Assembly: GCA_963827655.1 (NCBI GenBank)
Contig: CAWHCF010000050.1
Location: forward strand, 123,775-187,774
Source: an uncultured Acidobacteriota bacterium
Lineage (GTDB): Bacteria > Acidobacteriota > UBA6911
DNA length: 64,000 bases
Direction: 5' to 3'
Made by a program: the position numbers and the translations under genes. The notes beneath the pieces were generated by a model, which was not told the origin of the DNA, did no database searches, and saw only the letters and a list, made by a program, of their open reading frames with translations. Positions 3,267-52,324 of this stretch are shown here, in pieces (the first letter of the stretch is position 1; the number at the start of each line of letters is the position of its first letter).

Positions 3267-4126
3267 CTATTTCACGAATGTTCCCAGGCGGAGATCCAGC
3301 AGCGCCTGCTTGATCTCCTCTTCCGTGTTCATCACGAACGGACCATAGCGCGCAATCGGCTCATGCAGAGGCTTGCCGGAAACCAGCAGAAAGCGAACGC
3401 CGCGCTCCGTCGCGCGAACCTGCACTGAATCCCCGTCGCCAAACACGACCAGTCTGGGCTGGGTAACGGCGCTTCCTGCTTCCGGTCTGTAACACCGAAG
3501 ATTCCCCCTCCCTCGTAGACGTAGGCAAAGGCCGTGTGTCCCTGCGGGATCGGATGAGCGAAGGAAACTTCCGCAGGCATTGAAATATCCAGGTAGGTCG
3601 GGTCTAACGCGATTTCGCTGACCGGACCGTGCGCATCGCCGACCATCCCCGCGATCACTTTGATCTTCACCCCGTCCTTGGCGCTTACTTCTGGAATCTT
3701 CCCGGCGGCGTATTCCTGATAGCGCGGACGGGTCATCTTGAGCCTGGCCGGCAGGTTGACCCACAACTGAAACCCATTCAGTCGTCCTCCGCGCACCTGG
3801 GGCATTTCTTCATGCATGATCCCGCTCCCGGCGGTCATCCATTGAACATCGCCGGCGCCGATGCTGCCCGAATGCCCGATAGAATCCCGGTGATTCACGA
3901 CGCCCGACAGCATGTAGGTCACGGTCTCTATGCCGCGGTGAGGATGCATCGGAAATCCCGCGATATAGTCGTCGGGGTTGTCTGAACCGAAATGGTCGAA
4001 CAACAAGAACGGGTCCAGGTAATTCAGCGACCGCGTGGCTATGCTTCGTTTCAGCTTCACACCCGCGCCCTCGACTGTAGGCTCGGGATTCACGATTCGC
4101 TGCACGTTCCTGGGTTGTAATTCCAT
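3267..4126 (-). CDS. Pirin family protein (one frameshift near 3460)
   Basis: DPFLLFDHF, GFPMHPHRGIETVTY and QWMTAGSGIMHEE lie in ORF 3332-4156. The C-terminal EPIARYGPFVMNT lies in a second frame ending at 3267. GGAGG RBS before ATG 4126. Confidence 0.9.
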
Positions 4127-4377
4127 ATTCCCTCCCGCATCGTGGCAATGCCTCAACTAAGGGTCAAAATACTGGCGAGAGATTGGCGAAGTCAAACAAA
4201 GAAAGGACGCCACGGTTCTCCGCGACAACTTCACATTCTGGCGCGAGAGTTGGTGGTCAGTTTTTTGAATCGGATTTTCCGTTTGCCTTGGAGTGCGGCA
4301 GCTTGCTGAGCTTGCTACCGCCCCCAAGGCGCAAGTAAGTTCTTAACCTTACAAGCATCTCATCGGTCTCGGCGATT

Positions 4378-4462
4378 TCGCCCCGGAGGGGGCGACGGAA
4401 ATTAGCCCCGTGGCAAGCGAAGCGCAGCCCGGGGTTAGGGGTTTATAGTTTGTGCGCCCTGA
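4378..4462. repeat. Left half of a composite REP/REPIN-like element split by IS110
   Basis: cgccccggagggggcg hairpin and ggaaattagcc..ggcaagcgaagcgc, which are inverted relative to gcgctccgcttgcc..ggctaatttcc at about 6204-6230. Confidence 0.75.
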
Positions 4463-4477
4463 AGGTCCTGTGTTGTG

Positions 4478-4483
4478 AGTCAA
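4478..4483 (-). promoter_or_regulatory. -35 box (TTGACT) of the IS110 circle-junction promoter
   Basis: Overlaps the transposase stop codon and becomes 17 nt from TATGAT (6119-6124) only when the element ends are joined through the core. Confidence 0.8.
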
Positions 4484-5829
4484 GCAATTTTTTTTAGTTT
4501 GGGGTCCACTTTTTTCCACAGTGCACGGTTGTCCTTGTGCTGACGAACAAAAGTTTTCCACAGGCCCGCGTGATGGATTCGGATCTGTTCAATCATTCGA
4601 TTTACATCGTACATCTGGTTTCGGGCGACCAGTGCCCAGATGACATGGGCCATTCTGTTCATCTCAGCGCAGACGGCCTGCTGGGGACACAGGCCGCGCT
4701 GGATCATTCGCCACTTATGAAACGCAAAGGCGGGGTCAAAGTTGCAGGCGGTCTGCGTAACCAGATACAGCATAGCTCGTTGCTTGTGGTCGCCCCGGGC
4801 GGTCAGATGTGTTTTGTTAAGCGAAGTTCCCGTTTGGGTCCGCTCAGGACAACTGGCCCATTGAGCCGACAAAGCCTTGCCCGAAACGAACCGGGCGAGT
4901 CCCCGTGTGCCCAGCACCAGAGTGGCGGCAGAGACTATGGCGATGCCGGGGATACTGTCGAGCAGCTCGACCTGGCGCGCCGCAGACACGCCTTCTTCGG
5001 GTGTTTCGGTCTCGGCTTTCGCCTGTTGTACATAGGCAACCAGGGTCCGCTCTATATAGGCCAACCTCTTCTCCAGCAACTCGAGCTGAGCGAGCAGAAA
5101 AACCATGGCCTCGGCGTCATCGTCCTCGCCGGCGCTGGCTATCGACTGCTTAGCCAAGAGGATCAGTTGTTGAGCCCGTTCTACTCCGAGAGACCGACCC
5201 CGCCGCTCAGACTTCACTCGAGCCAAAGACAGGGCCTGGCGACGGGCCGCACGTCGTGCGGTGGGAATCTCACTCAACACCGCCCGAGCGAGCTTTGCGA
5301 ACGGGTCGGCGAAAACCTGGGTGAACTCTGGAAAGCACACCAGCACTTGCTCGTGAATCCGGTTTTTGGTTGCCGCCAGATCCTGGACCAAACGCTGACG
5401 TTCACTAATCACACGAGTCATCGCCTGGGCTTTGGGATCGTAATCGAAGGCCTCCAGCCGACGTTCGTATACCCGGGTAAACTCCGCCACATGATCGGAG
5501 TCGGACCCATCGGTTTGATCGCGGCGCGGGTTGGGACCTCCAAAGCGCGCGCTCTGGCCCGGATTGACCCGAATCAGCCTGATATTGCGATCCTGACAGG
5601 TCAACTTCCATTCTCCAAGCCAGGCGATCAGGTTGTCGTCTATCCGTCCGCTGGCCTCGATTCCGATCGTGAGATCCCCCTCTGGCAAGACAGACTTCAG
5701 ACTCTCGAATCCCTCGCGCGACATGTCAAACTGCCGTGCTTTCCAAACCCTTTCTCCGGTCGAATGCACCAGAGTTGCTGCAAAAAAAGACTTGCCTGGG
5801 TCAATGCCCAGCACGAAACTAGCTGTCAT
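4480..5829 (-). CDS. IS110 family transposase/recombinase (DEDD RuvC-like plus Tnp domain), about 449 aa
   Basis: LGIDPGK, IGIEASG and TDGSD supply the DEDD residues. C-terminal LLDSIPGI...RF.SGKAL...PERTQTG...RGDHKQRAMLY. AAGGAGG RBS before ATG 5829. Confidence 0.93.
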   Translation of the reverse strand: MTASFVLGIDPGKSFFAATLVHSTGERVWKARQFDMSREGFESLKSVLPEGDLTIGIEASGRIDDNLIAWLGEWKLTCQDRNIRLIRVNPGQSARFGGPNPRRDQTDGSDSDHVAEFTRVYERRLEAFDYDPKAQAMTRVISERQRLVQDLAATKNRIHEQVLVCFPEFTQVFADPFAKLARAVLSEIPTARRAARRQALSLARVKSERRGRSLGVERAQQLILLAKQSIASAGEDDDAEAMVFLLAQLELLEKRLAYIERTLVAYVQQAKAETETPEEGVSAARQVELLDSIPGIAIVSAATLVLGTRGLARFVSGKALSAQWASCPERTQTGTSLNKTHLTARGDHKQRAMLYLVTQTACNFDPAFAFHKWRMIQRGLCPQQAVCAEMNRMAHVIWALVARNQMYDVNRMIEQIRIHHAGLWKTFVRQHKDNRALWKKVDPKLKKIA

Positions 5830-5856
5830 GGGAGCCCTCCTTGGGTTATCCCGCAT

Positions 5857-6112
5857 CCGGGTCTCTCACCCTTGCGGCGATCCGCCTTAGTCAAGCGCGG
5901 TCCTGTACGAGATGAACCCGGTCTACGGGCGGAAGAGCGACCTTCAGGACGAGCTCGAGGCTCACGGGGCGCACGCTTTCTTCCGCCCGTATTCTTTTGC
6001 GGACTTAAAATGATCCCACGGATTTCCACATTTCCACAGCAATTCACAAAGAGAAAGAAGCAAAGAGAAAGCTACTACTACTACTATTGATATTCTTACT
6101 TAATTGGGTGCC
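5857..6112 (-). ncRNA. Predicted IS110 bridge RNA with target-binding and donor-binding loops
   Basis: A 13-bp perfect stem (5924-5936/5979-5991) encloses GCGCCCC and CCTGAAGG, which match the target flanks. A second stem (5857-5867/5909-5921) encloses ACAGGACC and CAAGG, which match the element ends. The 5' end is estimated from the -10 box. Confidence 0.85.
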
Positions 6113-6118
6113 ACAATG

Positions 6119-6124
6119 ATCATA
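6119..6124 (-). promoter_or_regulatory. -10 box (TATGAT) of the IS110 circle-junction promoter
   Basis: Lies just inside the left end and points into the non-coding end and the transposase. Confidence 0.8.
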
Positions 6125-6128
6125 CAAG

Positions 6129-6250
6129 GGGCGCCGGAGCATTGAGGGCCGTGTCCAGCGCCCCTCCGGGACGCGTCTCTTCGCGTGTCTGTGACCGGGG
6201 GCAGCGCTCCGCTTGCCCCCGGCTAATTTCCTTCGCCCTTTCAGGGCGCG
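6129..6250. repeat. Right half of the composite REP element split by IS110
   Basis: gcgcccctccgggacgc and cgccctttcagggcg palindromes, with inverted similarity to 4378-4440. Confidence 0.75.
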
Positions 6251-6335
6251 AGCTGGCGTAACCGTTCGTTCTGGACCAATACAAGATGCGTGTAAGGTTC
6301 AGAGCAAGCGTGCGCACTCCAAACCAACACGAGCA

Positions 6336-9300
6336 CTAAGGCCACCAGCGCGTTGCGTCCTGCACCGAGGAATACGCCTCGGCCACCGCTTCCGCGCCTC
6401 CAACTGCGGCCAGCGCGCCGGCTGCATTCGCCAGCACGGCGCAGATGTCCTTGCGAGTGCCCGTAGGAAGTCTGGTTATTGCCTGAGAGAACCAATCACC
6501 CCAGAACGGATAGAGACGGGCCGGGAGAAGTTCGAGTTTTGCCAGCCATTCGATCAACGGCGGACTGCTCTTGTGCAAAGAAAAGACGTCTTCGAGCAGA
6601 GCATCCGATAAGAATGGACTTAGCAGGTCGATCACGCGAATTGGATCATCGATCGCCAGCACGGCTTCCCGGGCGACTTCCTCTCGTAACGGAGTCGCCA
6701 ACCGCGCGGCCAGGGCGGCCAGCGCCTCGGCGCGGCGCGGCTTGAAATCAATCTCACGAGCGACAGTGAGCGCCTCGGGAAGTAACTCCTCCGGGAGACG
6801 CGGCGCCAAAGACTTCAGCGCTTCGTAACGTTCGAACAGGGGGATCTTGCGGGTCATCGCGAGCGCCTCAGGCAGCAGAGCCGCCGGAATATGAGGCGCC
6901 AGGTGTGTTAGATTCCAGCTCACGTAAGGAGATTGCTCTACCAGCTCGAGCGCCTTGGGAACGGCCTCTCTCTTAGCGTCCTCCGGCAGGTTGGGAATCA
7001 GTTCCACCAGGGTGTGGAGGCGGTCGTGCTCATAATCGATTCCGAGCGCGAGAGAAAGGGCTTCGCGGGCAACAGCGGAAAGGAGCCTCGCCTTGGAGGC
7101 ACTGCAACAGGTACTGCAAAGCCGGCAACCGGTTTGCCTCCTGCAATTCGGCGGCATGCTTTTCGCGCCTCCTGGATGCAACTATTTCGGCGCACTCCAG
7201 ACAACCGGGGAATAACGCTCCCGCAATACCTGGCACCTTTCCCAGGAATCTTCAAATTCATTCGCAGCCCGAAGAAATTCGTCGATCAGCGATTCTGGAA
7301 CGCTCCTGGCCAGATGGGCCAAAGCCCTGGCCCGCACGTCCAGGAATTTGATCGATCGAGCGCGGGCCAGCGCCTGTGCGAAAAGGGGTGCGGGCAACCG
7401 CGGCGCGAGGTGCTGCAGCACCGTTACCTGATCGTCGGTGTGATGTTCCAGCACGGCAGCGAGTGCCTCTCCCAGCAGCCTTGCCGGAAGATAGGGCGCC
7501 AGCGCGATCATGGAGTTGACCCGATCGCGCGAGTAGATCGAGAGTTCCCGCACCGCGGCCAGCGCTTCGTCGAACAGATGATCCGGGAGATGCGGGGCAA
7601 GGACGGCTAATATTTTCGCTCGCTCTCGGAAGTCCGGCGTTTTGCGCATCTGCGCGAGCGCCTCGGCCAGGGCTCGCTCGCGCGATTCACCGGGAAGGTG
7701 AAGAGCCAGGCTCCATAGGACCTGTTCGCATTCGTATCGATCTCCGACTTCGCGGCGCGCGTCTACCGTCTCGCGCAGCACTTGCTTGGTCTCGCCCTCA
7801 GGCAGGTAGGGCACAAGGTCAAACAGTGCTTCCGAGCGCTTCCACCCGAAGCCCACGCCGATCGAGCGCGCCACCTTCAACGCCTCGCGGAGGAGATCAT
7901 CCCGGAATGGGCCTGTGGCGCGTTTGATGAAGCTCGCCAGCGCGGTGACTCGATAGCCGGCGTCTTCGATCCTGCCGGTCACTGCCACGGCTTTCGGGAG
8001 GAATTCTTGCGGGAGGCACTCGGCTATTTCGGTCAGGGTGGTCGATCGCCTCAGCTCGTCGTCAATTCGCTCAACCGCCGACAGCGCTCGACGCGCGGCT
8101 CGCGACCGGATACTTCCGGTGAGATGAGGGGCAAGCCGCGCCAGCAACTTGGCGCAATCATCCTGGTCCTGAACGGCTGATGCCGCGGCTACGGCCTCGC
8201 GCCGGGCGCCGGGCGCGAGATACGGCGCAAGTTCGACGAAAATGTCGGCGCGCCGCCACTCGTTGATCTTGTTCTCGAAATGCTCTGCATCTCTCAGCCG
8301 CCGGCGCAGAATCGTTCCCCCCAGGAATGCAGGCCAGTGAGGCGCCAGGGCTGAAGCCAGTCTGGACCGAAACACAACCGGGATCGAGCGAGCCGCTCGA
8401 ACGGCTTCCTGAATCACTTGCTCTTTCGCTGTTTCGGGCAGGCGGGGAATCAAGGATACGAGCAGAGTGCCACGGGAATAGCCATCTGCCTGGCGTAGAT
8501 GATGCCAGCGACGTACACGCAACTGGCGCGCGATCTCCAGGATGCTCGAGAGCAGCGATTCCGGCACGAAAGGAACCAGATGTTTCAAAGCGCCGGGAAG
8601 CTCAACTGCGCTTGAAAGAGCCCTTTCCATCAACGACTCGGGCAGCGAGGGGGCTAGAGCCGCGAGCGCCTTGCCCCGGTAATAGTTATCCAGGACGCCG
8701 ATTCTCTCGATCGCCTCTCCAAGACATGATTCGGGCAGATAGGGCGTCAAAGCGGTGAGAGTATTGACGCAAGTATCAGGATCGCGAATGGTCCAAACGA
8801 ACTGCGAGGCTTCCCGAACCAGTGAATCCGGGAGCTGGGGGGCTAGTTCCCGCATCGCTTCGGCTACTTTCGTTGAATATCTGTAGTCGGTGGTTTCCCG
8901 CAAGGCGGTGAGCGCCTCTTGAAGAACCTCTTGCTTCCGTTCGCCTGTGGCATGTCGTGCCAGGGCGCTCAGGGCCTTGCATCGGTCATCGGGAGAAGAG
9001 ACCCTTCGTGCTACCCCCAGCGCCTCCCGCAGCACATCGTCTTTGAAATCCGGCGGCACATACGGGAAAAGCGCCGCCAGCCCCATGGAACTGACATCTG
9101 CATATCTGGCGTTTCGAGCGTAGGCCAGCGCCTGCTCCCATGACCAGACTCCGTGTTTGACCAGGGCCTCCAGGAGCGGTGGTTCGATATGCCAGGCCAG
9201 ACTTCTGAGCGAGGCGGCAATGATGGCGTACCGGACTTCGAGTCCTATGCTGGCGGGGATTTTCCCCTGACGTCCCTCCCCGGCCGACATCCGCTCGCTC

Positions 9301-11291
9301 ATGGCCCGCGCACGGCTGAGATCGCTCAGATATCCCGACGTATCGCCGGCCTGTTCGCGTGCGGCGAACCAGGCGTTCACGGCCTGAGGCCCGAAAGCTT
9401 TGTCCTGCTCGGGCCATTCCACCTGGAAGAGAGCCCGCACATCCCGTTCCCGGCCGGCGCCCTCCAGGTGAGTCACAAGGTGCCGAAGCCCATAGCGCTC
9501 GTCCAGCTGGACGGACGTGGTCTCCCTCAAATTGGGCAACCCGGCCGCAAGTCCTCCCCAGGCGTTGATGTATCGGTCGGCAAAGCGCGAATGCGCGCTG
9601 CGTGTGGCTTCGGCGATTTCTGTCGCGAAGCGACGCTCGCCGCTTGTCATTTCACTTGCATCCGCCCTTCCATCCAGGAATTCTCGCAGACTGGCATGGT
9701 GGAGGCGGTATCGAGGCTCGGGGCCCTCGCTAACCGTGACAAATGCGATCCAAGCCTGTTCCAGGAGCCGCCGTGCTGCGGGCTCAGCCGTCACGCCGGA
9801 AACGGAACAGAGGAACTTCAGGGAACAGTCTTCCTGGGCGGCGGCCAGGCTGGTGAGCAGCGGCAGTTGGATCGCGTCCCACTCGTCGGCGTGCTCTCTT
9901 CGCCATCGCTGCCAGTAGCGGGCATAGTACTGCCACACCCCCTGAGGCAAGGTTTCGAGTTCCAGCGGAGACCGTTCGCCGCTTTCGATTTCGCCGACAA
10001 CGTAGTGCAGATAGATCCATACACCGCGAGATTTATCGAGTAGTTTCTCGACGAAGCGATCCGGCGAAAATTCGCTTTTTCTGAGCGCCTGGGAAATTTT
10101 CTCCAGCCCGGCCGTGCGCTCCACATAAGCGCGCATGTCAGCCAGGTTGTTGGCATCCCCGGCTTCCAGTGTTACAACTCGGCGCGAAGTATCGACCATT
10201 AGCGAAACCTCCACCGGCCTCTGGGAAACCAGGAAATAGACACCTTCCGGCACCACCCCTGGCAACCCCAGGACGTTTTGTCCTGGAGGCGTGCCCGCCT
10301 CATCGAGCGCATCGACGACGACGACAATCTTCTCGCCTGGAGCCACTTCGTCTCGTTTGCGGGCGGCCTCAACCAGCAACGTCTGCAGGTAGTCGGGACG
10401 CGTGGCAGCTCCTGGCAGCACCTCATCGAGGCCGTAAGGATTCAGCTTCCACGAGCGAATCAGCTGAGCCGCCAGATTCTTGAGTCCCGGTCCAATTCCA
10501 TCGGCGCCGGGGGCCAGTTCGACAAAGTGGTGAATGTATCCGCGCTCCTTTACCAGATAAGCGAGCAGGGCTGTCTTGCCCAAACCCGCTTTGGCTTCGA
10601 GCACAAAATAACCGGAGGAACTCTCGGAGAGAAACGTATCGAACTGGCGGGTCAACCATTCGCGGCCGACGAAGCGGTCGAGCCGCACCCTTCGGAATAC
10701 CGACCACGGCTGAATGTAAGCATCGCGCAGCCGCTGGTAATCGCCAACAAACACCTGATTGTGGCTTCCGGAGACGACCACACTGCGGATGACCTCGCCT
10801 CCGACTCCTATCTGCGCCACCAACCAGTTGTGCAGGTCTGCGGTGATTTTGGCCGCAAGCTCATGCGGATTGCTGAATTCGGTGACCGTGTGGCGGTCCG
10901 GTGCCCGCAGCTCCTGTTTAAGCGCGGTCAGCCGCGCCGATTTATCAGGGTCGGTTTCGCGCCAGGATGGGTCGATGGCCGATTCGGCTTTGAAATAAAT
11001 GAAGCAGGGCAGGCCGCGCTCCTGGGCGCGCCGGTACTCTCGCTCGGTGATGCCCGAACCGTAGCGGCCTCCGAAAATGCCGATGTAAACCTGGCTTCGG
11101 TCTACTTCGTCGAGCGATGCCACTTCGGTCGTTTCATCGCGGCTGCCGAAATACTCCATGCCGACGAACTTGGTGTCTCTCATGCGCTGGAGCGAAGCCT
11201 CCACGGCCTCGCGCTCGGGCTTCAGGTCGAGCGAGGTCGAACTCACAAATACCGCTACCGTTACCGCAGGTCGGGGAGGCATGGGGCGCAT
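6336..11291 (-). CDS. DUF4062 (TIR-like) - STAND/NACHT-like NTPase - helical repeat protein (two frameshifts near 7080-7230)
   Basis: N-terminal VFVSSTSLDLKPER...YIGIFGGRYGS.ITEREY (DUF4062), Walker A AKAGLGKT and Walker B IVVVVDALDE. Many L..LAP.LP...L.EAL repeats continue in ORF 6336-7181 and end in RWWP. Confidence 0.85.
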
Positions 11292-51801: not shown

Positions 51802-52324
51802 GGTTTCCTCCTTTAAGAATAACGAACATCGGTGCCGTGCTGTGCGGCACGGCGTACATGCTTACTGCCATTAGATAGTGGCGGCATGCTTCTCGAAATT
51901 TCATCTCGCGTTAACCAGGGCCGAAGACCCGCCAGTGAATAGCCGCGCCACGTGAGGGACTGTCTCAGAACCTGCCCGGCACTGCGAACAGGTTCTGTGC
52001 CGGTCCCTCGGACCTCGATGTCATCTGCACCACAAGCCACGTCCTGACGGGCGTGGCTACTCACTGACGGGCCTTCGGCCCTGGCTACCGGCACCCGAGC
52101 TTCTGTGCCTGTGAAATGTCCAAACACCATGGTCCTTCGGACCGCCAGCGAGCACTGTCTGGATCACAGGTACGTCCTTAAGAAATATTTGCTCCCTTCC
52201 GACTGCCTGAGCTAGGATTGAGCCCGCACAGGACTTTCGGTCATTGATTCGTCAATAGCCTCTTCTCGATGCCGTTCGAGCCCTCCAGAAAGCAAGTCCT
52301 CAAATACCTGAAGCCCACCGGGAA

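What the first reader, a model, noticed from the sequence alone, without database searches (positions are those of the whole stretch)
5857..5991. Bridge RNA whose four guides match this element's own target and donor sites
Seen in sequence (minus strand): the reconstructed target is GGCGCCC-CT-TCAGG and the circle donor is ACAGGAC-CT-TGTAT. A 13-bp stem (tacgggcggaaga/tcttccgcccgta) encloses GCGCCCC (plus 5966-5972, identical to the left target flank) and CCTGAAGG (5941-5948, complementary to core plus right flank), separated by a small gagc/gctc hairpin. A second stem encloses ACAGGACC (5899-5906, identical to the right element end) and CAAGG (5870-5874, complementary to CCTTG at the left end). 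Both left guides end in CG where the DNA has CT. Established: this is the target-binding/donor-binding loop architecture of IS110 bridge RNAs such as IS621, whose donor I recall as ACAGTATCTTGTAT. Inference: this is a new, divergent RNA-guided recombinase system with fully legible programming.
Basis: partly seen in the sequence, partly recalled or inferred. Interest (0 to 1): 0.88.

Follow-up and report, generated by a model that had tools for sequence, protein, structure and literature searches.

The report
Bridge RNA of an IS110-type element
This is the guide ("bridge") RNA gene of a small jumping gene of the IS110 family, a known kind of RNA-guided DNA recombinase, found here in a distant, unstudied branch whose enzyme has threonine where the studied enzymes have their catalytic serine.

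Summary
Window 6126-4465 (minus strand) is a 1,662-bp IS110-family insertion sequence, flanked by CT on both sides. It sits in the loop of a REP-like hairpin that occurs about 30 times in this genome. A second exact copy lies in another copy of that repeat, and uninterrupted copies show the reconstructed target.

The 297-nt left end encodes an IS621-type bridge RNA, with a target-binding loop at 5991-5924 and a donor-binding loop at 5921-5857. In 32 metagenomic homologues the two target guides covary with the flanking DNA. All 8 distinct right guides match 40 of 40 variable positions. The 13 distinct left guides match 84 of 104. No permutation of 10,000 reached either value. One donor-guide change is mirrored in the element's right end, and a handshake-guide position tracks target position 6. 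A split TTGACN-17-TATGNT promoter forms only in the circle.

So this is a real bridge RNA of a known kind, not a new system. Three features are unusual. The 449-aa recombinase is only 17-18% identical to IS621. Its whole clade has Thr at the IS621 Ser241 position. A conserved roughly 50-nt leader with two pairs of direct repeats has no explanation. No direct RNA evidence was obtained.

The parts
4465..6126 (-). Body of the insertion sequence (1,662 bp; 1,664 bp with one CT core). It consists of a 297-nt non-coding left end, the recombinase gene and a 15-nt right end.
   Evidence: Junctions read. A second exact copy, 1,666 bp with both cores, lies on contig C53 with different flanks. Uninterrupted target copies were found.
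6127..6135 (-). Left target flank GGCGCCC (6135-6129) plus the left core CT (6128-6127).
4458..4464 (-). Right core CT (4464-4463) plus the right target flank TCAGG (4462-4458).
4478..4483 (-). -35 hexamer TTGACT in the right end. It overlaps the recombinase stop codon TGA (4482-4480).
   Evidence: In the inferred circle it lies 17 nt upstream of TATGAT. The hexamers and the spacing are kept in 28 of 29 homologous loci that have both ends.
6119..6124 (-). -10 hexamer TATGAT at the start of the left end.
   Evidence: No sigma-70-like site exists in the left end of the integrated copy.
6047..6071 (-). Conserved leader, part 1: two direct repeats CTTTCTCTTTG (6071-6061 and 6057-6047). Function unknown.
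   Evidence: column identity 0.93 over 26 distinct left ends.
6023..6038 (-). Conserved leader, part 2: two direct repeats TGTGGAAA (6038-6031 and 6030-6023). The first UGUGG is predicted to pair with CCGCA (6002-5998), closing a 5' stem-loop of variable length.
   Evidence: (helix 1, 96.9% of cells paired, no compensatory change).
5924..5991 (-). Target-binding loop module. The 13-bp outer stem pairs 5991-5979 with 5936-5924. A 3-bp stem pairs 5976-5974 with 5939-5937. The inner hairpin lies at 5964-5950.
   Evidence: helix 2: 16 pairs, 6 with compensatory changes, 98.8% of cells paired.
5965..5973 (-). Left target guide UGCGCCCCG. Positions 3-8 are identical to the top strand of the target. 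Position 9 is G where the DNA has T.
   Evidence: Identity to the flank at positions 3-9 is 21, 19, 23, 24, 24, 17 and 22 of 24 unique pairs. At positions 1-2 it is only 6 and 8 of 24.
5942..5948 (-). Right target guide CCUGAAG, complementary to the core CT plus TCAGG on the top strand.
   Evidence: 26 of 29 loci match 5 of 5 variable positions. The other 3 differ at one position that still allows a G-T or U-G wobble.
5940..5941 (-). Handshake guide of the target loop (GU), complementary to donor positions 7-6 (C, A).
   Evidence: Sequence read. The assignment rests on analogy with IS621 positions 81-82 (PMC11208158, passages from section 11).
5857..5921 (-). Donor-binding loop module. The outer stem pairs 5921-5915 with 5863-5857. 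The second stem pairs 5912-5907 with 5869-5864. The inner stem-loop lies at 5900-5882.
   Evidence: helix 4: 13 pairs, 5 with compensatory changes; helix 5: C-G changes to U-A in 9 sequences.
5899..5906 (-). Left donor guide ACAGGACC, identical to the right end plus the first core base.
   Evidence: Locus L032 has ACGGGAC both in the guide and in its right end.
5871..5881 (-). Right donor guide, discontiguous: AU (5881-5880) and GCAAG (5875-5871). It is complementary to C8-T14 of the donor (CT-TGTAT), with a G-T wobble at T12.
   Evidence: Sequence read. The pattern is analogous to IS621 A157-U158 / G161-G165 (PMC11208158 section 8). Locus L029 has A at the wobble position. Guide and donor are otherwise invariant, so covariation cannot be tested.
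5869..5870 (-). Handshake guide of the donor loop (GG), complementary to target positions 7-6 (C, C).
   Evidence: The second letter is G in 18 of 18 pairs whose target position 6 is C. It is C in 4 of 6 pairs whose target position 6 is G.
4480..5829 (-). Recombinase gene (449 aa), with Shine-Dalgarno AAGGAGGG at 5842-5835. The DEDD residues are D10, E58, D107 and D110. The Thr333 codon is 4833-4831 and the Ser336 codon is 4824-4822.
   Evidence: Pfam PF01548 and PF02371. Alignment to IS621 and ISCro4 chains. AF2 model and Foldseek search. Motif tables.

Best explanation
Window 6126-4465 (minus strand) is an active IS110-group insertion sequence. Its 297-nt left end encodes a bridge RNA.

Shown from sequence:
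- The element has no inverted ends and is flanked by the core CT.
- It sits in the loop of a repeated hairpin, GCGCCC-CTTCA-GGGCGC.
- The genome holds two exact copies at two different sites.
- The RNA folds into two stem-enclosed internal loops.
- In the target loop, the left guide (5971-5965 effective) is identical to the target top strand, so it can pair with the bottom strand. The right guide (5948-5942) is complementary to CT plus 5 nt of the right flank.
- In the donor loop, ACAGGACC (5906-5899) and AU...GCAAG (5881-5871) do the same for the joined ends ACAGGAC-CT-TGTAT.
- Two dinucleotides (5941-5940 and 5870-5869) are placed to pair with positions 7-6 of the other DNA, as handshake guides do.

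Inferred by analogy with IS621:
- Excision to a circle joins a -35 in the right end to a -10 in the left end. This promoter drives the RNA, and probably the recombinase mRNA that follows it.
- Recombinase tetramers hold one loop on the target and one on the circle junction.
- The top strands are cut 3' of the core T by the hydroxyl residue of the Tnp-domain loop. Here that is Thr333 or, less likely, Ser336.
- The strands are exchanged, and the Holliday junction is resolved on the bottom strands.
For: 1. Anatomy and coordinates are confirmed.

2. The protein has the DEDD_Tnp_IS110 domain (9e-19) and the Transposase_20 domain (2.6e-11). A profile of the clade hits the IS621 and ISCro4 chains at 1.6e-21 and 3.4e-22. 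The 10 best Foldseek hits of the AF2 model (pLDDT 84.4) are all IS621 or ISCro4 chains.

3. Transposition is recent. There are two exact 1,666-bp copies in two different copies of the target repeat. The genome also holds 14 unoccupied CGCCC-CT-TCAGG sites against 2.4 expected from composition.

4. Guide and target covary across the window plus 32 metagenomic loci.
- Right guide: the right junction was readable in 29 loci, giving 8 distinct guides. These match 40 of 40 variable positions, against a permuted mean of 22.5 (sd 3.2). 0 of 10,000 permutations reach 40.
- Left guide, positions 1-8: 13 distinct guides match 84 of 104, against 64.4 (sd 3.3). 0 of 10,000 permutations reach 84.
- Left guide position 6 (C or G) matches the flank in 24 of 24 unique pairs.

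5. The donor guide is tied to the donor. L032 carries the same A-to-G change in the guide and in its right end.

6. The handshake position covaries with target position 6: 18 of 18 and 4 of 6.

7. The secondary structure is supported on 26 distinct left ends. 97.2% of cells are paired. 13 of 43 pairs carry compensatory changes, against 2.7 (sd 0.9) in shuffles (0 of 500 reach 13) and 0-4 in the slid controls.

8. The split promoter TTGA[CT]N-17-TATG[ACT]T is kept in 28 of 29 loci with both ends. The integrated left end has no sigma-70-like site.

9. The details agree with the IS621 papers.
- The IS621 left donor guide pairs only through the first core base (PMC11208158 section 8). That explains the non-matching ninth base of the donor guide here.
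- The first core base is variable and the second is T, as reported there. Here the left junctions read CT, TT or AT, while the right junction is always CT.
Against: - No direct evidence of the RNA was obtained. Metatranscriptome contigs cover the left end only at depth 2-4. They can show neither ends nor strand, and DNA carry-over cannot be excluded.
- Single-sequence folding energy is unremarkable: z = 0.18 for the whole left end and z = -1.37 for 156 nt.
- Positions 1-2 of the nominal 9-nt left target guide match no better than chance.
- Position 9 of the left target guide is a mismatch in this copy.
- Two loci fit their left guide poorly: L014 matches 3 of 9 and L025 5 of 9.
- The right donor guide and its donor are invariant, so their pairing rests on analogy.
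- Rfam gave no bridge-RNA match.
- The protein scores 128.7 bits against the NCBIfam IS110 model, below its cut-off of 140.
- The catalytic-serine position of IS621 holds threonine here. Serine chemistry therefore cannot simply be assumed.
- All homologue DNA comes from short metagenome contigs.
Confidence: 0.9

Rival explanations
1. The recombinase recognises the target hairpin and its own ends as protein alone. The conserved left end would then be a set of protein-binding sites plus the 5' untranslated region. The short matches to the target and the donor would be incidental or inherited.
For: The target is a structured REP-like hairpin. A preprint on ISPpu10 reports that a target stem-loop adds specificity beyond base pairing (10.64898/2026.03.19.712850, abstract only). 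The left end contains strongly conserved direct repeats that look like binding sites. The RNA itself was not shown.
Against: The guides lie about 150-260 nt inside the element, yet they change together with DNA outside it. This holds for 8 distinct right guides and 13 distinct left guides, and 0 of 10,000 permutations match the observed agreement. The stems around the guides carry compensatory changes. This is the pattern of an RNA, not of a protein site.
Confidence: 0.03
2. The structured left end mainly controls transcription or translation of the recombinase in cis, as an attenuator or by occluding the ribosome-binding site. Its complementarity to the DNA sites would be secondary.
For: The donor-binding module ends 28 nt before the start codon. 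The CU-rich leader repeats contain UCUCUUU, which could pair with the AAGGAGG ribosome-binding site through G-U pairs (my reading of the sequence; not tested).
Against: This does not explain why the guides covary with the insertion sites. The two roles do not exclude each other.
Confidence: 0.04
3. The bridge RNA reading is right, but the nucleophile of this clade is the nearby Ser336 rather than Thr333, because the catalytic loop is shifted by three residues.
For: Ser336 is invariant in the 35-sequence alignment. It is S in 18 of the 21 Thr-type representatives. The loop 329-345 is modelled with pLDDT below 50, so its register is not fixed by the model.
Against: IS621 S241-G242 aligns without gaps to T333-G334, between a conserved P..R and G. 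Thr is present in 21 of 21 clade representatives, while the +3 residue is T in two and Q in one.
Confidence: 0.25

Closest known systems
IS621 of Escherichia coli: bridge RNA and recombinase (Durrant et al. 2024, PMC11208160; Hiraizumi et al. 2024, PMC11208158; passages and sections 8 and 12 read)
   Same: - The RNA is encoded in the left end, upstream of the gene.
- The order is a 5' stem-loop, then the target-binding loop, then the donor-binding loop.
- The left guides equal the top strand and the right guides complement it.
- The core is CT, with an invariant T.
- The left donor guide pairs only through the first core base.
- The right donor guide is discontiguous, with a G-T wobble at T12.
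- Handshake dinucleotides follow both right guides.
- A sigma-70-type promoter is split across the circle junction.
- The targets are repeated extragenic hairpins.
- The donor is identical at 12 of 14 positions (IS621 donor as printed in PMC13396178).
- The DEDD residues align.
   Different: - The recombinase is 449 aa, against 326 aa for IS621. Foldseek alignments give 17-18% identity.
- About 70 residues are inserted between the two long coiled-coil helices, and the C-terminus carries extra helices.
- Thr333 aligns with Ser241.
- The effective left target guide covers 5 flank bases plus the core, against 7 plus the core in IS621. The right target guide covers 5 flank bases plus the core, against 2 plus the core.
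- The left end is 297 nt, against 191 nt in IS621. The extra part includes a conserved leader of about 50 nt made of direct repeats.
- Four bases rather than two appear to be looped out of the right donor guide (inferred).
ISCro4 transposase (PDB 9t56; name as in the PDB listing)
   Same: It is the best sequence match among solved structures (4.9e-07 with the single sequence, 3.4e-22 with the clade profile). It was solved as a synaptic complex with both bridge RNA loops and both DNAs.
   Different: It is 341 aa long, has SGSS in the catalytic loop, and is 17-18% identical. I read no paper on it.
ISPpu10 of Pseudomonas putida (preprint 10.64898/2026.03.19.712850; abstract only)
   Same: It is an IS110 element whose insertions all fall in copies of one conserved intergenic sequence that forms a stem-loop.
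   Different: In ISPpu10 the stem-loop is a 5' extension beside the paired target. Here the insertion point lies in the hairpin loop itself. Whether the hairpin adds specificity was not tested.
IS1111-group elements (bridge or seek RNA in the right end; PMC11208160 section 12)
   Same: They have the same DEDD recombinase family and the same two-loop RNA logic.
   Different: In IS1111 elements the RNA lies downstream of the gene in a long right end, and subterminal inverted repeats span 7-17 bp. Here the right end is 15 nt and the RNA lies upstream. Only a 3-bp ACA/TGT pair flanks the donor.
Nop5 / Nop56 / Nop58 of box C/D RNPs
   Same: They are the next-best structural matches after the IS110 recombinases (Foldseek ranks 12 and below). 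This agrees with the title and abstract of preprint 10.1101/2024.06.21.599552 (search listing only).
   Different: They have no RuvC DEDD nuclease function and guide RNA methylation rather than DNA recombination.

Membership tests
IS110 family, IS110 group (bridge recombinase plus bridge RNA) | N-terminal RuvC-like domain with the DEDD motif | tested here: met
   PF01548 at 9.1e-19. D10, E58, D107 and D110 align with IS621 D11, E60, D102 and D105 (residue numbers from PMC11208158 section 6). Most full-length rows printed read DEDD at these columns; some read DEDS, DEDE or DEDV, and fragments have gaps.
IS110 family, IS110 group | C-terminal Tnp domain (Transposase_20) | tested here: met
   PF02371 at 2.6e-11. 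The Foldseek top 10 are all IS621 or ISCro4 chains.
IS110 family, IS110 group | Conserved catalytic serine in the Tnp-domain loop (IS621 S241, followed by G242) | tested here: not met
   S241-G242 aligns to T333-G334. 84 of 87 close relatives read T-G-x-S; the other 3 are fragments lacking the region. Of 150 representatives, 21 have T (all in this clade), 124 have S and 5 have a gap. A hydroxyl residue is retained, and Ser336 lies 3 residues further on.
IS110 family, IS110 group | NCBIfam equivalog NF033542 (IS110 family RNA-guided transposase) at or above its cut-off | tested here: not met
   128.7 bits against a cut-off of 140.
IS110 family, IS110 group | No terminal inverted repeats; a 2-nt core (CT) at both junctions; a long non-coding left end and a short right end | tested here: met
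   CT lies at 6128-6127 and 4464-4463. The left end is 297 nt and the right end 15 nt. The empty sites carry a single CT.
IS110 family, IS110 group | Left-end RNA with two internal loops whose left and right guides match the target and the donor | tested here: met
IS110 family, IS110 group | Guides covary with the target and donor DNA across orthologues | tested here: met
   One search gives the permutation tests (0 of 10,000 for both target guides). One search gives the per-position results and the handshake covariation. One donor-guide event was seen (L032). The right donor guide is invariant and therefore untestable.
IS110 family, IS110 group | [quoted passage not shown] | tested here: met
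   TTGACT-17-TATGAT by sequence, conserved in 28 of 29 loci. Activity was not tested.
IS110 family, IS110 group | The RNA is expressed and bound by the recombinase; recombination depends on the guides | not testable with these tools
   Only contigs from RNA libraries were available, and they are inconclusive.
IS1111 group | Bridge RNA in a long right end; subterminal inverted repeats of 7-17 bp | tested here: not met
   The right end is 15 nt and the RNA lies in the left end. The group definition is taken from PMC11208160 section 12.

The most novel reading that the evidence does not exclude
This element would represent a deep clade of bridge recombinases that departs from IS621 in three linked ways. 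It uses a threonine nucleophile instead of the family's serine. It has acquired an insert of about 70 residues in the coiled coil and a C-terminal extension. It also carries an extra RNA or DNA module in the leader, conserved as strongly as the bridge RNA stems: two CTTTCTCTTTG repeats and two TGTGGAAA repeats. The insert would bind this module, adding a layer of control over expression, assembly or direction that IS621 lacks.
Probability: 0.25. Interest if true: 0.65.

Novelty: new variant of a known kind. Interest (0 to 1): 0.45.

Why it matters
Bridge recombinases are under development as programmable genome-rearrangement tools, and almost all mechanistic knowledge comes from IS621 and its close relatives. 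This element gives a natural and evidently active orthologue at 17-18% identity. Its guides, core preference and handshake positions can all be read from natural covariation.

- **Different split of recognition.** The left target guide is short and the right target guide covers 7 nt. Durrant et al. found that extending the right guide improves efficiency and allows cores other than CT.
- **Threonine at the nucleophile position.** The clade-wide Thr bears directly on the chemistry of the composite RuvC-Tnp active site.
- **Conserved leader.** It points to a part of the system that the IS621 model does not contain.

For annotating this genome the result is ordinary: an IS110-family insertion sequence in a REP-like repeat.

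Tried and rejected
- **Rfam.** A scan of 4200-6500 at E up to 1 gave no bridge-RNA family. It gave only weak Acido-Lenti-1 matches in the flanks.
- **Folding energy.** Single-sequence minimum free energy did not stand out from shuffles, so I did not use it as evidence.
- **Homologues in genomes.** A scan of 400 other genomes of the phylum at E <= 1e-30 found the protein only in the window's own genome; the threshold was strict. The genome-contig scan gave one partial, distant locus, L011. All usable homologue DNA therefore came from the metagenome scan. Of its 40 loci I used the 32 that hold the gene start or the left end, and left out L039, L040, L042 and L047-L051.
- **Fetching IS621.** A blastn search of the left end against E. 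coli genomes found nothing. The comparison with IS621 therefore rests on the papers' text and on PDB chains.
- **RNA evidence.** 24 runs were listed. I laid 4 RNA-library runs from 3 studies. Contigs at depth 2-8 cover most of the element, including 5832-6145. They cannot show transcription, ends or strand. No circle-junction joint was seen. One contig bridges an uninserted relative of the repeat.
- **Integrated promoter.** No sigma-70-like promoter was found in the integrated left end.
- **Third right-junction match.** A third copy of the right-junction 14-mer lies on contig C26. It sits inside unrelated, probably coding sequence and is a chance match.
- **IS1111 / seekRNA type.** Considered and rejected, because the RNA lies upstream of the gene.
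- **Leader as a second promoter or an anti-Shine-Dalgarno element.** Considered from my own reading only and left open.
- **Literature on threonine.** Searches for IS110 + threonine + bridge RNA and for IS110 + nucleophile + threonine found nothing relevant in the held library.
Full report
**What is there.** On the minus strand the window holds an ORF of 449 aa (5829-4480). It carries the two Pfam domains of IS110-family transposases: DEDD_Tnp_IS110 at 9.1e-19 and Transposase_20 at 2.6e-11. Upstream lie 297 non-coding bases, and 15 lie downstream. The left junction reads GGCGCCC-CT-TGTAT (6135-6122). The right junction reads ACAGGAC-CT-TCAGG (4471-4458).

**The target is real.**
- The window's own genome (8.18 Mb, 53 contigs) holds a second copy of the element on another contig.
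- With both cores, the two copies are identical over 1,666 bp, but their flanks differ by point changes. They are therefore two separate, recent insertions.
- Both copies sit at the centre of a palindromic repeat of roughly 270 bp. About 30 copies of the repeat aligned up to the junction, the two occupied ones included.
- Uninterrupted copies read, for example, GACGCCC-CT-TCAGG and GTCGCCC-CT-TCAGG. The commonest form is TGCGCCC-CT-TCAGG-GCGCA, a GCGCCC/GGGCGC hairpin with the insertion point in its loop.
- The 12-mer CGCCC-CT-TCAGG occurs 14 times unoccupied, against 2.4 expected from base composition.
- The two junctions share CCTT, so this copy alone cannot place the crossover. The homologues and IS621 place it at CT.

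**The RNA.**
- Folding 156 nt recovers the 13-bp stem 5991-5979 / 5936-5924 and the second stem system. The folding energies are not exceptional (z = -1.37; z = 0.18 for the whole left end).
- The evidence comes from comparison instead. A protein search found 87 relatives at 41-98% identity, nearly all on metagenome contigs of 1.4-2.5 kb.
- A metagenome scan returned 40 loci, of which I used the 32 that hold the gene start or the left end.
- On 26 distinct left ends (A2), RNAalifold recovers the same stems.
- For a structure I wrote out (43 pairs), 97.2% of cells pair. 13 pairs show compensatory changes, against 2.7 (sd 0.9) in shuffles (0 of 500 reach 13) and 0-4 when the partners are slid.

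**Guide and target covariation.**
- *Right target guide.* The right junction was readable in 29 loci. In 26 of them the five variable bases of the right flank are the exact complement of the guide. In the other three, one position differs in a way that still allows a G-T or U-G wobble. Taking one row per distinct guide (8 guides), 40 of 40 positions match. Permuting guides against flanks gives 22.5 (sd 3.2), and 0 of 10,000 permutations reach 40.
- *Left target guide.* Thirteen distinct guides match 84 of 104 positions (1-8), against 64.4 (sd 3.3), and 0 of 10,000 permutations reach 84.
- *Per position (24 unique pairs).* Positions 3-9 match in 21, 19, 23, 24, 24, 17 and 22 pairs. Positions 1-2 match in only 6 and 8. 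Six of the seven misses at position 8 are U opposite a top-strand C, which is wobble-compatible with the bottom-strand G.
- *Effective guide lengths.* The effective left guide is thus 5 flank bases plus the core. The right guide covers 5 flank bases plus the core. IS621 uses 7 and 2 flank bases respectively (PMC11208160).
- *Worst fits.* These are L014 (3 of 9) and L025 (5 of 9).
- *Donor side.* It is almost invariant, but L032 has ACGGGAC both in its guide and in its right end. L029 has A at the position that otherwise makes a G-T wobble with donor T12.

**Fine details that match the IS621 structures.**
- *Ninth base of the donor guide.* In IS621 the left donor guide pairs only as far as the first core base, and the next RNA base pairs within the RNA (PMC11208158 section 8).
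- *Ninth base of the target guide.* It is U in 22 of 24 unique homologue pairs. It is G only in this lineage (the window, L012 and L043), where it is a true mismatch.
- *Handshake guides.* After the right target guide come G and U, complementary to donor positions 7-6. After the right donor guide come G and G, complementary to target positions 7-6. The second of these is G in 18 of 18 pairs whose target has C at position 6, and C in 4 of 6 whose target has G. This is the handshake-guide arrangement of IS621 (PMC11208158, passages from section 11).
- *Core.* Left junctions read CT, TT or AT, following guide position 8, while right junctions always read CT. This fits top-strand cleavage 3' of the core T, with the target's core staying at the left junction (inference). 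It also fits the published statement that the first core base is less conserved than the T.

**Promoter.** TTGACT (4483-4478, overlapping the stop codon) and TATGAT (6124-6119) lie 17 nt apart once the ends are joined. The same arrangement is present in 28 of 29 homologous loci with both ends. The exception has a 1-nt deletion in the -10 hexamer. The integrated left end has no sigma-70-like site. This matches the circle-junction promoter described for IS621 (PMC11208160 section 5). The RNA would then start near 6112 and be about 255 nt long up to 5857, longer than the 177 nt of IS621. That is inference. The RNA-library contigs I could lay are uninformative.

**The protein.**
- It is a distant family member. 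It scores 128.7 bits against NCBIfam's IS110 model, whose cut-off is 140. As a single sequence it gives E = 6.9e-05 to IS621 and 4.9e-07 to ISCro4. A profile of the clade gives 1.6e-21 and 3.4e-22.
- The AF2 model (pLDDT 84.4, pTM 0.76) finds IS621 and ISCro4 chains as its ten best matches in the PDB (E from 3.9e-10 down, TM-score 0.57-0.59 on the target, 16-18% identity). Nop5/Nop56/58 proteins follow.
- D10, E58, D107 and D110 align with the IS621 DEDD residues. The numbering of the IS621 chain was checked against D11, E60, D102 and D105.
- Compared with IS621 (RuvC 1-122, coiled coil 123-188, Tnp 189-326), the model has long helices at 132-165 and 236-273 with about 70 residues of short helices between them. 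It also has extra C-terminal helices at 421-449.

**An unexpected point.**
- IS621 Ser241-Gly242 aligns without gaps to Thr333-Gly334.
- 84 of the 87 close relatives read [Q/E/K]-T-G-x-S. The other three are fragments that lack the region. The 38-44% identical loci L011 and L046-L049 read T-G as well.
- Of 150 representatives at 50% identity taken from 1.84 billion proteins, 21 have Thr. All 21 belong to the best-scoring group. A further 124 have Ser and 5 have a gap.
- In the Thr group the residue three places further on is Ser in 18, Thr in 2 and Gln in 1. The canonical position is therefore the better-conserved hydroxyl.
- Two exact copies and many distinct insertion sites show that these elements move.
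- Two literature searches found no relevant paper on a threonine at this position in IS110 enzymes. The supplements could not be read.

**An unexplained part.** Between the promoter and the 5' stem-loop lie two direct repeats CTTTCTCTTTG (6071-6061 and 6057-6047) and two TGTGGAAA (6038-6031 and 6030-6023). Their column identity over 26 distinct left ends is 0.93-0.94. The bridge RNA stems score 0.95-0.97 and the guides 0.79-0.84. Nothing in the passages I read on IS621 corresponds to this leader.

**Verdict.** It is not a new kind of system. Bridge RNAs are predicted for 85.7% of IS110-group elements (PMC11208160 section 12), and this one has the canonical architecture. It counts as a variant because of the threonine, the enlarged recombinase, the shifted guide lengths and the conserved leader. 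I score interest at 0.45.

Noticed in passing
window 4831-4833 (Thr333 codon) and 4822-4824 (Ser336 codon), minus strand: The IS621 catalytic Ser241 position holds Thr in this protein and throughout its clade. 21 of 150 representatives at 50% identity have Thr, all in the best-scoring group, and 124 have Ser. No relevant paper turned up in two searches.
   Followed up: partly
window 6071-6023, minus strand: The leader upstream of the bridge RNA contains two direct repeats CTTTCTCTTTG and two TGTGGAAA. They are as conserved as the RNA stems across 26 distinct left ends. Their function is unknown.
   Followed up: partly
window 6129-6270 and 4330-4462; about 30 places in the genome (e.g. L003-L006): The IS target is the central hairpin of a palindromic repeat of roughly 270 bp. 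Its two arms each resemble the Rfam motif Acido-Lenti-1 (24.2 and 18 bits, below the cut-off of 37). That 'sRNA' motif may therefore belong to a REP- or MITE-like repeat here.
   Followed up: partly
window 52037-52082, plus strand: A match to Rfam Acido-Lenti-1 above the gathering score (43.9 bits). It lies away from the insertion sequence.
   Followed up: no
loci L012-L046, left and right junctions: The left-junction core is CT, TT or AT and follows position 8 of the left target guide. The right-junction core is always CT. This is a natural footprint of which strand's core survives at each junction.
   Followed up: partly
window 7182-11291, minus strand: A 1,369-aa ORF next to the insertion sequence has an N-terminal DUF4062 domain (3.4e-17) and a weak NPHP3_N-type P-loop match, followed by long repeats. 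It may be a defence-type NTPase.
   Followed up: no
window 3267-4156, minus strand: The pirin gene appears split over two overlapping frames. The Pirin N-terminal domain lies in ORF 3332-4156, and a pirin-like C-terminal end lies in ORF 3267-3764. This suggests a frameshift or an assembly error.
   Followed up: no
window 6336-7181, minus strand: A 281-aa ORF directly left of the target repeat has no Pfam match. By eye it resembles the repeats of the neighbouring 1,369-aa ORF.
   Followed up: no
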